From Duganella fentianensis (GTDB lineage Bacteria; Pseudomonadota; Gammaproteobacteria; Burkholderiales; Burkholderiaceae_D), in NCBI RefSeq assembly GCF_964031615.1, contig NZ_CAXIQN010000022.1:19090-83089 (forward strand): a stretch of DNA of 64,000 nt, read 5' to 3'. How positions within the stretch are numbered: position 1 is the first letter of the stretch; each line of letters starts with the position of its first letter. The notes below the pieces were generated by a model. That model did not search any database, was not told the DNA's origin, and was given only the letters and a program-made list of their open reading frames with translations. Both the position numbers and the translations under genes were made by a program. Below are positions 30,873-33,271 of the stretch, piece after piece.

Positions 30873-31271
30873 GTGACCGGCGCAGCAGCACGCGCGCCGG
30901 TGCCCACCTGGCTGGCGACGGGCGCAGGGCGCGAAGCGGCGATTGCCGCCCGCCTTGGCGCGCCCGCTGCGCCGTCACCAGACGCTGGTTCCAGCGTCGT
31001 CATCCTCGAAGGCATGCCCACCGGGCTATCGCCGCTGGCCGATCTGGCCGATACCTCTCCTAGTGTGCAAGTGTTGCGAATTGCTCCCGGTTGCCTGCAT
31101 TGCAGCGGCAATCTGGTTTTGCGAGTAACATTGAACCGTGTTCTGCGTCATCCGCCCGAGCAGCTATATATCGGGCTGGCCAGCGCCGAGCACCTTGAGC
31201 TGTTGCGTGACTTTTTACAGGCGGCCCCGTATGCCGCCTTGCTGGACCTGCAAGCTGATCTGGCGGCCTGA
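30873..31271 (+). CDS. Small protein resembling a degenerate CobW/YeiR-type GTPase N-terminus
   Basis: APGCLHCSGNLVLRVTLNRVLR..PEQLYIG; family call is inference. Confidence 0.6.
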   Translation: MTGAAARAPVPTWLATGAGREAAIAARLGAPAAPSPDAGSSVVILEGMPTGLSPLADLADTSPSVQVLRIAPGCLHCSGNLVLRVTLNRVLRHPPEQLYIGLASAEHLELLRDFLQAAPYAALLDLQADLAA

Positions 31272-31276
31272 ACCCT

Positions 31277-31328
31277 GCCGCCGGAGCGCCGGCCGCCGGA
31301 TCGCCGGCCGCCGGATCGCCGGCCGCCG
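31277..31328. repeat. 15-bp tandem repeat GCCGCCGGATCGCCG x3.5
   Basis: Copies start at 31277 (one mismatch), 31292, 31307; partial at 31322. Confidence 0.9.
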
Positions 31329-31330
31329 TA

Positions 31331-31359
31331 CTTGTAAAAGGGCGTCACCAGCCCCACTT
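31331..31359 (+). promoter_or_regulatory. Candidate sigma-32 (RpoH) promoter
   Basis: CTTGTAA-N14-CCCCACTT vs consensus CTTGAAA-N13-14-CCCCAT. Confidence 0.4.
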
Positions 31360-31412
31360 CGGTGGGGACGACGCAACCGACCAGTGTTACGTCCCTAGTG
31401 AAAGGAAGCAGC

Positions 31413-31670
31413 ATGAACCTCATCTATAACAGCGAACAGTTCAGCGTCCTCGAGTTTGGTGTCGACCGCAGCCATGAAGCCTTGCGCTTTGGCGGCTATG
31501 AAATTGTCGACAAAGGGGGCAAACGTGAAATCTTCATCAACGGCATACTGGCGCAGAATTTCCGCCGCGACGTTAGCGAACTGATCGCGAGCGAACCGAC
31601 GATGGCCGAGATCGACGAATTCCTCGGCAGCTACAACGAAGTCATGAGCTATCCCGCGACGCTGCACTGA
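31413..31670 (+). CDS. DUF3567 / BTH_I0359 family protein
   Basis: AAGGAAG RBS; MNLIYNSEQF, GGYEIVDK...REIFI, EIDEFLGSY. Confidence 0.8.
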   Translation: MNLIYNSEQFSVLEFGVDRSHEALRFGGYEIVDKGGKREIFINGILAQNFRRDVSELIASEPTMAEIDEFLGSYNEVMSYPATLH

Positions 31671-31725
31671 GTTGTGGCCAGCGTCGTCAGGCCTAGTGGG
31701 CTTGGCGCTTTTATTTGCTATCAGT

Positions 31726-31760
31726 AAGCCCCTCGCTGCACATTACGAGGGGCTTATTTC
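31726..31760 (+). terminator. Intrinsic terminator after DUF3567
   Basis: AAGCCCCTCG-loop-CGAGGGGCTT then ATTTCTTT. Confidence 0.75.
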
Positions 31761-31848
31761 TTTGCGCTGCATCGCAGAATGCCGTTTGTTTGGCATTTCA
31801 TTAAACTTTACTTGCTCGTTACTACCAGGGTGTGCCTGCACGCAATCT

Positions 31849-32188
31849 CCTCGTATTTATCGGGGCAGGGAGATCAGGCAGTATCTGCGAGCAAAAAACG
31901 CCTTGGGTTGTTGTCTGGCAAAGGACACGATTTTGTGCATCCGTTTTCCAGCCAAAGCGACCTTGATCGAAGAATCCTTGCATGCACTACAGTTTTCGAC
32001 GGGGCTTTACAATTGTGTCGTCGATCGCACAGGCAATCTGCGGGCGAATCTGGCGATGGAATATCAGGCGGCCAGCATGCTGGTTGCTCATCAGCACAGG
32101 TGGAAATTGCCAACGCGCGAAACAGGGGAGAATTGTCGGCGCCTGCGGCTGTATTCCCGTACCATATCTGCGAGTGGAGGAGCGCTAA
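31849..32188 (+). pseudogene. Start-less remnant of a putative zincin-like (EExxH) polymorphic-toxin domain
   Basis: Frame of ORF 31672-32280 reads EIRQYLRAKNALG...DTIL...ATLIEESLHALQ...LAMEYQAASML...WKLP..E...RLRLY; no plausible start; family call from memory. Confidence 0.5.
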
Positions 32189-32189
32189 C

Positions 32190-32459
32190 ATGGCATTTAC
32201 GTTTGAAATTACGCAGATCAGCAGACTCGCTCAAGCCCATGTTGGAATTCTTGATGGGAAGCTGCTTGAAGGGGCGATAGTTACGGGAACCATCGTCCAT
32301 CTGGTGCATGGCGACCAGCGCTTGCCGTTACGGGTGAAAGGCGTGGTACTGGATGCAGCAGGGCGGAGCGATGGTGCGCTGAGCGTTACGGTTGACTTGC
32401 GCGAGCAAGCGATGCAACTAGCCCGCGTTGGCGATAGGCTGACTGCAATGGAGCATTGA
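32190..32459 (+). CDS. 89-aa beta-barrel-like protein (EF-Tu domain II-like), candidate immunity protein
   Basis: GGAGG RBS at 32176-32180; FTFEITQIS...ILDGKLLEGAIVTG pattern resembles translation-factor domain II. Confidence 0.7.
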   Translation: MAFTFEITQISRLAQAHVGILDGKLLEGAIVTGTIVHLVHGDQRLPLRVKGVVLDAAGRSDGALSVTVDLREQAMQLARVGDRLTAMEH

Positions 32460-32497
32460 ATTGCCGCGTGACAGCGGCCAGTGGTTATAATCGGGTG

Positions 32498-33271
32498 ATG
32501 TGCCAATTACTCGCAATGAATTGCAATGTGCCCACCGACATTGTGTTCAGTTTTACCGGCTTCGCCATGCGTGGCGGCCAGACCGATACCCACCATGATG
32601 GCTGGGGCATCGCCTTTTTCGAAGGCGCCGGTGTGCGCCATTTCGTTGACCATCAGGCGGCCGTCAGTTCGCCTATCGCCGAACTGATCAAGCGCTATCC
32701 CATCAAGTCCAAGAACGTCATCGCCCATATCCGCAAGGCTACGCAGGGGCAGGTGGCGCTGGAAAACTGCCATCCTTTCGTGCGCGAGCTGTGGGGCCAG
32801 TACTGGGTGTTTGCCCATAATGGCGATCTGAAAGCCTTCGCGCCCGTGCTCGATGGCCCGTACCGTCCCGTCGGCAGTACCGATAGCGAGCTGGCGTTCT
32901 GCTACATCATGCAGCAATTGCGCAACCGTTTCGGCACCGAACGTCCCGCCCGTGCTGCCCTGCGTGCTGCGCTGGCCGAGCTGACGCAGGAAATTGCCGC
33001 CTATGGCACTTTCAATATGCTGCTGTCCTCGGGGGCCGAACTGTTTGCCCATTGCTCCACCAATCTCGTATATCTGGTGCGCCAGTATCCGTTTGACACG
33101 GCGCAGCTGTCGGATGAAGATGTGCAGGTGGACTTCTCGCAGGTGACGACTCCGAACGACAGGGTTGCCATCATTGTGACGCAGCCGCTGACGACCAATG
33201 AACAATGGACGGCGTTTCAGCCCGGTGAATTGAAAGTGTTCGTGGACGGCATGCCGGAAACGCAACTGTGA
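32498..33271 (+). CDS. Class II glutamine amidotransferase (YafJ-like)
   Basis: MCQLL N-terminal Cys, DGWGIAF, AHIRKAT, NCHPF, FAHNG, GSTDSE. Confidence 0.93.
   Translation: MCQLLAMNCNVPTDIVFSFTGFAMRGGQTDTHHDGWGIAFFEGAGVRHFVDHQAAVSSPIAELIKRYPIKSKNVIAHIRKATQGQVALENCHPFVRELWGQYWVFAHNGDLKAFAPVLDGPYRPVGSTDSELAFCYIMQQLRNRFGTERPARAALRAALAELTQEIAAYGTFNMLLSSGAELFAHCSTNLVYLVRQYPFDTAQLSDEDVQVDFSQVTTPNDRVAIIVTQPLTTNEQWTAFQPGELKVFVDGMPETQL

What the first reader, a model, noticed from the sequence alone, without database searches (positions are those of the whole stretch)
31849..32188. Hidden orphan toxin-like metallopeptidase remnant (EExxH)
Seen: in lower-GC DNA behind a terminator, one frame reads EIRQYLRAKNALG..LAKDTIL...ATLIEESLHALQ...LAMEYQAASML..HQHRWKLP..E...RLRLY with no usable start. 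A TAA in the +1 frame (32186-88) sits 1 nt before the next ATG. From memory, this follows the pattern of zincin-like C-terminal toxin domains on phage MuF and other polymorphic toxins (EA..YL...A.A.TL....IL......A.FEELIH..Q...EI.A...L.....Y.L..E....L..Y). Inference: a decayed orphan toxin tip of the kind found in Rhs/CdiA/MuF arrays.
Basis: partly seen in the sequence, partly recalled or inferred. Interest (0 to 1): 0.65.

Follow-up and report, generated by a model that had tools for sequence, protein, structure and literature searches.

The report
Truncated toxin gene beside intact immunity gene
The stretch is the start-less remainder of a small bacterial toxin gene, related to the toxic tips of Rhs and phage MuF proteins, and it sits just before its intact antidote gene; this is an ordinary kind of decay with a few unusual details.

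Summary
Frame 31840-32280 (+) is a real protein-coding frame with no ATG.

- **Domain match.** An HMM built only from 130 distant C-terminal domains of MuF, Rhs, PT-TG and other proteins hits this one frame among 1110 window fragments (E 1.7e-23, nt ~31858-32166).
- **Family.** It is the EExxH branch of Pfam Tox-MPTase4. 55 of 143 homologues match PF15640, whose canonical motif is HExxH.
- **Truncation.** Syntenic relatives carry an intact ~180-aa gene starting MLFRTR. The window has a 137-nt deletion that removed the ribosome site, the ATG and about 41 codons. The whole catalytic domain remains in frame.
- **Selection.** There is no sign of relaxed selection (dN/dS ~0.1), so the loss is recent or the gene still has some function.
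- **Partner gene.** The next gene (32190-32459, 89 aa) is intact and folds like EF-Tu domain II. It is homologous to the small genes that follow distant EExxH toxins, so it is the cognate immunity gene.
- **Overlap.** It runs 91 nt into the immunity gene, and that stretch is unusually conserved.
- **Context.** The pair is a rare, low-GC, ~0.8-kb cassette inserted between DUF3567 and a GATase gene. It is not part of an Rhs, CdiA or MuF array.

Interest is moderate.

The parts
31671..32478 (+). Whole inserted cassette (terminators, toxin remnant, immunity gene) between the DUF3567 stop and the GATase promoter-proximal sequence
   Evidence: In most congeners the DUF3567 stop lies about 35 nt from the GATase ATG. 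Here there are ~0.8 kb of lower-GC DNA.
31686..31766 (+). Two tandem intrinsic-terminator-like hairpins (31686-31706 and 31723-31758, each with a U-run)
   Evidence: Terminator scan. RNA fold -45 kcal/mol, z -3.0. The second hairpin is kept through compensatory changes in L006 and L013.
31827..31828 (.). Junction of a 137-nt deletion relative to syntenic intact loci (position uncertain by a few nt)
   Evidence: Alignment with L006 and L013, columns 236-372. The missing DNA holds the SD, the ATG (MLFRTR…) and about 41 codons.
31840..32280 (+). 5'-truncated toxin gene A (146 codons plus TAG), open throughout
   Evidence: hmmsearch matches profile positions 42-185 of 186, whereas all other loci except L017/L018 match 1-185. 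83 % aa identity to the intact L006 protein.
31858..32166 (+). Tox-MPTase4-like (EExxH) toxin domain
   Evidence: HMM of 130 distant C-terminal domains, E 1.7e-23, 78.9 bits; the only hit among 1110 fragments.
31969..31992 (+). Motif EESLHALQ (EExxHxxQ), equivalent to HExxHxxQ of canonical Tox-MPTase4
   Evidence: E, E, H and Q are at least 90 % conserved in 143 homologues. The canonical neighbour P0164 has FHEATHARQ.
32059..32061 (+). Glu130 of the window ORF, in the motif (M/I)E(Y/I); candidate third metal ligand, 26 residues after the His
   Evidence: Invariant in A5 (E108 in that alignment's numbering) and at least 90 % conserved in A8. The ligand role is inferred.
32176..32182 (+). GGAGGAG Shine-Dalgarno for the immunity gene, inside the toxin frame (codes the conserved Gly-Gly)
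   Evidence: Read directly from the sequence; 7 nt before the ATG at 32190.
32190..32280 (+). 91-nt dual-coding overlap: last 30 codons of A and first 30 codons of B
   Evidence: The overlap is present in every locus examined that carries the A frame. There are 0 changes between window and L006 against 9.6 % in the rest of B. B-frame pS is 0.45 against 0.70.
32190..32459 (+). Immunity gene B, 89 aa, EF-Tu-domain-II-like beta-barrel
   Evidence: AF2 pLDDT 86.6. Foldseek top hits are EF-Tu domain II, TMq 0.74-0.78, prob 1.0. Homologous to genes downstream of distant EExxH toxins. dN/dS 0.06-0.08.

Best explanation
The stretch is what remains of the toxin gene (A) of a two-gene toxin-immunity cassette.

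**Intact form.** Intact A proteins (~180 aa) have three parts: a short basic N-terminal segment (MLFRTRxANGRPAP…); a ~100-aa Tox-MPTase4-like zincin-type domain in which the usual HExxH is EExxH, followed by a conserved Glu about 26 residues later; and a 30-aa tail encoded in the same DNA as the start of the next gene.

**Proposed mechanism.** By homology with the C-terminal tips of MuF, Rhs and PT-TG polymorphic toxins, A is inferred to be a metal-dependent hydrolase, probably a peptidase, that is toxic in the bacterial cytoplasm. B, an 89-aa EF-Tu-domain-II-like beta-barrel with its own strong SD, is inferred to bind and neutralise it.

**State in this genome.** A 137-nt deletion removed A's ribosome-binding site, its ATG and its first ~41 codons, while B stayed intact. 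The toxin is therefore most likely no longer made, or made only at trace level, and the cell keeps the immunity gene.

**Shown versus inferred.** Shown: the homology, the deletion, the intact partner, the insertion into a housekeeping intergenic site and the purifying selection. Inferred: toxicity, peptidase chemistry, neutralisation by B and loss of expression.
For: - Intact homologues with a conserved ATG, each followed by a B homologue, occur in G015, G023 and metagenome loci L006-L013, L015, L019.
- The 137-nt gap lies exactly over the start.
- A profile search of 1.84 billion proteins gave 144 hits, with the domain at the extreme C-terminus.
- Pfam on those hits: Tox-MPTase4 55/143, Phage_min_cap2 16, Phage_Mu_F 15, RHS 3, PT-TG 1. 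P0036 carries an Rhs_assc_core domain.
- The reciprocal HMM gives E 1.7e-23.
- All nine near-invariant family residues are present in the window copy.
- Immunity homology. B fold.
- A second, independent case has A cut down to its last third with B intact (L017/L018).
- An empty site exists in congeners.
- The cassette is rare and sits in different contexts: 3/41 relatives and 1/401 of the family sample.
Against: - The remnant shows no decay other than the deletion. It has no stops or frameshifts. dN/dS is 0.14 against L006 and about 0.08 on the window branch, as low as between intact copies. It may therefore still be expressed.
- Neither the window remnant nor its close intact relatives reach any Pfam threshold; among these, Tox-MPTase4 appears only for the G015 protein, at E 0.11.
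- The defining HExxH is not met.
- The AF2 model of A is mediocre (pLDDT 69, all-alpha) and has no significant structural neighbour, so the zincin fold is not confirmed.
- No activity data exist for this branch.
Confidence: 0.78

Rival explanations
1. The shortened gene is still functional. It is translated from an in-frame TTG (31762, preceded by GAGGGG at 9 nt, or 31786) and yields a complete toxin domain lacking only the family-specific N-terminal ~41 aa.
For: - The entire domain seen in distant homologues (profile 47-148) is retained.
- All conserved residues are intact.
- dN/dS is 0.08-0.14 with no stop in 146 codons.
- The frame is open from 31648.
Against: - The conserved ATG and its SD are deleted.
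- The GAGGGG before TTG 31762 is the descending arm of a 13-bp terminator stem.
- No sigma-70-like promoter was found.
- All other full-length family members keep the N-terminal segment.
- Low dN/dS is equally explained by a recent deletion.
Confidence: 0.2
2. The intact cassette is not an interbacterial weapon. It is an intracellular toxin-antitoxin or abortive-infection type module that borrowed a polymorphic-toxin domain. The remnant is then a decayed TA toxin with its antitoxin retained.
For: - A is standalone, without a signal peptide or any known trafficking domain.
- The pair sits alone in four unrelated chromosomal contexts.
- The own genome has no other copy of A or B and no PF15640 match.
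- B gives a weak hit to a PADLOC candidate defence protein, PDC-M02B, E 8e-4.
- Zhang et al. 2012 note that some polymorphic-toxin domains also occur in TA systems (PMC3482391).
Against: - There is no match of A to PADLOC or PHROGs.
- The homologous domains are overwhelmingly C-terminal tips of secreted or packaged toxins.
- No regulator or DNA-binding antitoxin features are seen in B.
Confidence: 0.3
3. The frame is a chance open frame in a long 5' leader of the small gene 32190-32459; the resemblance is accidental.
For: The window sequence on its own has no Pfam or Rfam match.
Against: - E 1.7e-23 to an independent profile.
- 83 % identity to intact syntenic proteins, with a codon-position pattern of purifying selection.
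Confidence: 0.01

Closest known systems
Tox-MPTase4 (Pfam PF15640; Zhang et al. 2012, PMC3482391): zincin-like metallopeptidase toxin domain of polymorphic toxins
   Same: - About 100-aa C-terminal domain on RHS, T6SS or T7SS-type toxins.
- The block '…TI(L/Y)LR..P…(F/Y)xExxHxxQ…' aligns with a canonical member (P0164).
- 55/143 profile homologues hit PF15640 at E<=0.01, best 5.4e-8.
   Different: - The first zinc-binding His of HExxH is Glu (EExxH) in at least 90 % of homologues.
- The window protein and its close relatives score far below the Pfam cut-off of 25 bits; the best is 12.9 bits, for the G015 protein.
- Here the protein is standalone rather than a tip.
- Zhang et al. list no immunity protein for the family, whereas this branch has a conserved one.
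MuF polymorphic toxins of temperate phages (Jamet et al. 2017, PMC5576092)
   Same: - 31 of 143 homologues carry Phage_Mu_F or Phage_min_cap2 N-terminal parts with this domain at the C-terminus, followed by a small ORF.
- The paper reports that 20 % of MuF toxins carry a metallopeptidase domain.
   Different: The window gene has no MuF part and is not in a prophage. There are no phage or plasmid matches to A itself.
Orphan toxin-immunity cassettes of Rhs/CdiA loci
   Same: - A start-less toxin fragment followed by an intact immunity gene.
- A true array of this type with an EExxH toxin was seen in L020: a Tox-MPTase4 gene, an Rhs-core EExxH toxin and a TNT cassette.
   Different: - There is no parent toxin gene nearby and no shared recombination stub.
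- The loss is a 137-nt deletion in a formerly self-sufficient gene.
- The flanks are housekeeping genes.
EF-Tu domain II (translation-protein beta-barrel), for the partner gene
   Same: Predicted fold TMq 0.74-0.78 to EF-Tu domain II in many PDB entries. These include complexes of EF-Tu with the toxins Tse6 and CdiA-CT (4zv4, 5i4q, 7vmc).
   Different: - 15-18 % identity.
- No Pfam GTP_EFTU_D2 match.
- A stand-alone 89-aa protein with no GTPase domain.

Membership tests
Tox-MPTase4 (PF15640) | Match to the Pfam model above the gathering score (25 bits) | tested here: not met
   Window frame: no hit at E<=1. The G015 homologue scores 12.9 bits, E 0.11. Membership rests on transitive homology: 55/143 profile hits match PF15640 at E<=0.01.
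Tox-MPTase4 (PF15640) | HExxH zinc-binding motif (Zhang et al. 2012, Table: 'F[DN], [RK], HExxH') | tested here: not met
   The motif is EExxH (EESLHALQ, 31969-31992). Glu at the first position is at least 90 % conserved in 143 homologues. Canonical P0164 has HEATH.
Tox-MPTase4 (PF15640) | Upstream conserved F[DN] and [RK] positions | tested here: inconclusive
   The window has …LAKDTILCIRFP…. Distant homologues have …T(F/Y/L)(N/D)..TILL(R/K)..P…. D and R are present but the F is not conserved.
Tox-MPTase4 (PF15640) | Zincin-like alpha+beta metallopeptidase fold | tested here: inconclusive
   AF2 model pLDDT 68.8, all-alpha. There is no Foldseek hit with E<0.5 in PDB or BFVD and no PDB relative by sequence.
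Tox-MPTase4 (PF15640) | Peptidase activity and toxicity | not testable with these tools
   Needs expression and assay.
Polymorphic toxin C-terminal domain with cognate immunity | The domain occupies the extreme C-terminus of proteins with diverse trafficking N-termini | tested here: met
   True of the homologues: median 2 aa from the end, and 53 have at least 150 aa upstream, with MuF, Rhs or PT-TG parts. The window gene's own family is standalone.
Polymorphic toxin C-terminal domain with cognate immunity | A small gene immediately downstream that co-varies with the toxin domain | tested here: met
   B follows A in all loci. The genes after distant EExxH toxins (L020, L021, L022, L023, L024) are B-like: hhalign prob 80 %, E 1.5e-5. 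The gene after the canonical HExxH toxin in L020 is not B-like.
Orphan module of an Rhs/CdiA/MuF array | Lies downstream of a full-length toxin gene of the same system | tested here: not met
   Neighbours are DUF3567 and GATase_4. There is a single copy of A and of B in the genome and no PF15640 match.
Pseudogene | Loss of the start codon relative to intact orthologues | tested here: met
   137-nt deletion over the SD, the ATG and 41 codons.
Pseudogene | Relaxed selection, stops or frameshifts | tested here: not met
   No stop in 146 codons. dN/dS is 0.14 (pairwise) and about 0.08 on the window branch.
EF-Tu domain II-like beta-barrel (partner gene B) | Structural match to the translation-factor domain II barrel | tested here: met
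   Foldseek prob 1.00, TMq 0.74-0.78, E 5e-3. The model has pLDDT 86.6. There is no sequence-level match.

The most novel reading that the evidence does not exclude
The conserved immunity protein of the EExxH branch is a free-standing mimic of EF-Tu domain II. On this reading the toxins would act on, or need to dock to, domain II of EF-Tu or another translational GTPase. Immunity would work by molecular mimicry of the target or cofactor rather than by plugging the active site. In addition, the His-to-Glu change (EExxH) would shift the metal preference, as HEXXH to EEXXH does in ZIP8/ZIP14 transporters (PMC10457451). The 91-nt dual-coding overlap would tie toxin and immunity synthesis together.
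Probability: 0.12. Interest if true: 0.7.

Novelty: new variant of a known kind. Interest (0 to 1): 0.4.

Why it matters
On its own the remnant is a routine example of a toxin being lost while immunity is kept. Following it up brought out four things that are not in the family descriptions at hand:

- **An EExxH branch.** A large, well-conserved EExxH branch of Tox-MPTase4 that the Pfam model mostly misses.
- **An unannotated immunity family.** A conserved immunity family with an EF-Tu-domain-II fold, where Zhang et al. list none.
- **A standalone form.** A chromosomal form of the pair that inserts between housekeeping genes.
- **A long overlap.** A 91-nt toxin/immunity overlap under double constraint.

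These give concrete, cheap experiments on what this class of MuF and Rhs toxins attacks.

Tried and rejected
- **Rfam** on 31000-33000 (both strands, E<=1): only a spurious mir-734 hit in a GC-rich repeat at 31256-31318. There is no RNA family in the finding.
- **Pfam, NCBIfam, PADLOC and PHROGs** on the window frame and on intact A: nothing significant.
- **PDB sequence search** with profiles of A and B: nothing.
- **Foldseek with the A model** against PDB and BFVD: no significant hit. The top BFVD hit is a 'minor capsid protein 2' at E 0.74, which is not usable.
- **tblastn of A against plasmids:** no match. tblastn of a MuF-EExxH protein against phages matched only the MuF part.
- **Repeat in own genome:** single copy.
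- **Promoter scan:** none.
- **Alternative frame:** the long same-frame ORF 31779-32459 upstream of B (226 aa) was considered as a longer B and rejected. B's ATG, SD and N-terminal strand are conserved, and distant immunity proteins start at the same place.
- **Last word-indexed protein search** with a mixed B profile reached only 24 proteins, all 'hypothetical'.

Full report
**What is there**

The region has lower GC than its flanks (0.51-0.56 against 0.60-0.68; GC3 0.56 against 0.71-0.77). It begins just after two terminator-like hairpins (31686-31706 and 31723-31758) that follow a DUF3567 gene (31413-31670). The frame has no ATG before Met129. Its in-frame TTG/GTG codons (31672, 31696, 31702, 31762, 31786) lie in or next to the terminators. 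The TAA at 32186-88 is real but lies in another frame. The toxin-like frame runs on to TAG 32278-80, 91 nt into the next gene (32190-32459). Direct Pfam and Rfam searches of the window sequence gave nothing.

**It is a real gene fragment**

Two congeneric genomes (G015 and G023) and several metagenome contigs carry intact 172-199-aa ORFs in this frame. All start with a conserved ATG (MLFRTR… or MLLKIR…NGRPAP). Each is followed by a homologue of the 89-aa gene, which overlaps the last ~30 codons.

- Contigs L006-L010 and L013 share the window's synteny: NtrY/NtrX-like genes, a 132-aa ORF, DUF3567, A-B, GATase_4, EAL/HDOD.
- Aligned with L006 and L013, the window lacks 137 nt (junction ~31827/31828). 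That stretch holds the SD, the ATG and the first ~41 codons.
- hmmsearch confirms that all loci except the window (profile 42-185) and L017/L018 (profile 103-184) have the full-length frame.
- L017/L018 is a second, independent truncation, again with the downstream gene intact.

**What family**

A profile of seven A proteins was searched with HMMER against 1.84 billion representative proteins. It found 144 proteins at E<=1e-3.

- Beyond the close ~180-aa relatives, the match (profile 47-148) lies at the very C-terminus of proteins up to 883 aa. The median distance to the end is 2 aa, and 53 proteins have at least 150 aa upstream.
- Scanning all 143 against Pfam gives Tox-MPTase4 in 55 (best 5.4e-8), Phage_min_cap2 in 16, Phage_Mu_F in 15, RHS_repeat in 3, PT-TG in 1 and eCIS_core in 2. 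P0036 has an Rhs-associated core.
- The near-invariant residues are E-E-x-x-H-x-x-Q, G, E, A, L and E. All are present in the window copy (EESLHALQ at 31969-31992; Glu130 at 32059-61).
- As a reciprocal, independent test, I built an HMM from 130 distant C-terminal domains, excluding the clade of close standalone relatives (Duganella/Pseudoduganella-type). I searched it against all 1110 stop-to-stop fragments of the window. The only hit is this frame, at E 1.7e-23, covering nt ~31858-32166.

Zhang et al. (2012) define Tox-MPTase4 by 'F[DN], [RK], HExxH' and list no immunity protein (PMC3482391). A canonical member next to one of my hits (P0164 in L020) indeed has FHEATHARQ and aligns with A over the strand-plus-motif block. 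The present family is therefore a sister branch in which the first zinc-ligand His is Glu. It fails the strict motif and the Pfam cut-off but is linked by profile searches. The AF2 model of an intact A (pLDDT 69, all helices) found no structural neighbour, so the zincin fold is not confirmed here.

**The partner gene**

B (32190-32459) has a GGAGGAG SD 7 nt upstream. It is well conserved and under strong purifying selection (dN/dS 0.06-0.08). It is predicted with pLDDT 86.6 as a small beta-barrel. Its best PDB matches are all domain II of EF-Tu and its relatives (TMq 0.74-0.78, prob 1.0).

The genes immediately after distant EExxH toxins have the same size and pattern. These are the Rhs type in L020 and L022, the MuF type in L021, the PT-TG type in L023, and L024. 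A profile-profile comparison gives 80 % probability, E 1.5e-5. The gene after the canonical HExxH toxin in L020 is unrelated. B is therefore the cognate immunity protein of this branch. No library names it.

**State of the window copy**

Apart from the deletion, nothing is broken.

- Over the non-overlapping 116 codons, window against L006 gives dN 0.13, dS 0.94, omega 0.14. With L013 as third taxon, the window branch has omega of about 0.08. This is no higher than between intact copies, which give 0.13-0.26.
- The deletion is therefore recent, or the fragment retains function. I favour recent silencing, for three reasons. The conserved start and SD are gone. The only SD-like sequence before an in-frame TTG is buried in a 13-bp terminator stem. 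No promoter-like site was found.

**Context**

In most congeners the DUF3567 stop lies ~35 nt from the GATase ATG. The A-B pair with its terminators is therefore a ~0.8-kb insertion, or ~0.94 kb when intact.

- One congener (G005) has a different 211-aa gene at the same site.
- Elsewhere the pair sits next to a SpoU-type methyltransferase (G015), a histidine kinase and TonB receptor (G023), purM and PFK (L011), or a TonB receptor and DNA polymerase II (L015).
- It is rare: 3 of 41 relatives and 1 of 401 genomes sampled from the family.
- The own genome has one copy of A and one of B, no PF15640 match, and the neighbouring genes are not Rhs or MuF. It is therefore not an orphan of an array.

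**Mechanism**

This part is inferred. Intact A is a cytoplasm-acting, metal-dependent hydrolase, probably a peptidase by descent from zincins. B neutralises it by binding. Here the toxin has been silenced by deletion and immunity kept, which is the usual direction of decay for such pairs.

Two details deserve note.

- First, A's last 30 codons and B's first 30 codons share 91 nt. This stretch has no change between window and L006, against 9.6 % in the rest of B, and B's synonymous divergence there is 0.45 against 0.70 overall. That is as expected if both frames, or an RNA signal, are constrained.
- Second, B's EF-Tu-domain-II fold invites the idea of target or cofactor mimicry. Several unrelated toxins bind EF-Tu, and complexes of this kind are among the Foldseek hits. 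This is unproven.

**Verdict**

It is a variant of a known kind, of moderate interest.

Noticed in passing
window 32190-32280: 91-nt dual-coding overlap between the toxin tail and the immunity N-terminus. It is 100 % identical to L006 while neighbouring DNA is 76-92 % identical. B's third codon positions are almost invariant in codons 1-8 across nine diverged loci.
   Followed up: partly
window 31670-32180 vs L006: Local island of divergence: 61-87 % identity and dS 0.94 in the toxin gene, against 94-98 % identity and dS 0.13-0.31 in all flanking genes. This suggests allele exchange by recombination or very weak codon constraint in the foreign, low-GC3 gene.
   Followed up: partly
L027 (G005) 700-1500: The same DUF3567/GATase intergenic site holds a different insert in another congener: a 211-aa gene on the opposite strand. 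The site appears to be a small hotspot for accessory genes.
   Followed up: no
L017 1949-2394 and L018: Independent second case of toxin decay. Only the last ~82 codons of A remain (no EExxH) directly after an unrelated 225-aa gene, while the immunity gene is intact.
   Followed up: partly
L020 (metagenome contig, 5.7 kb): A classic polymorphic-toxin array. It holds a canonical HExxH Tox-MPTase4 protein with a 72-aa gene, an Rhs-core protein with the EExxH tip and a B-like 85-aa gene, and then a TNT-domain cassette with small ORFs.
   Followed up: partly
window 32190-32459: B gives a weak match (E 8e-4, 16 bits) to positions 251-326 of PADLOC candidate defence protein PDC-M02B. This is probably a shared barrel domain.
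   Followed up: no
window 31256-31318: GC-rich tandem ~15-mers (GCCGGCCGCCGGATC-like) upstream of the DUF3567 gene produce a spurious mir-734 hit (E 0.097). L006 differs here by 16-24 nt of gaps.
   Followed up: no
window 30873-31271: 132-aa ORF starting 4 nt after the NtrX-like regulator. It has no Pfam match and is conserved in the syntenic contigs (dN/dS 0.2 vs L006).
   Followed up: no
window 31671-31766 vs L030: In genomes with the empty site, DUF3567 and the GATase gene are ~35 nt apart with no terminator. The cassette brought two terminators between them, so GATase transcription must have been rewired in this lineage.
   Followed up: no
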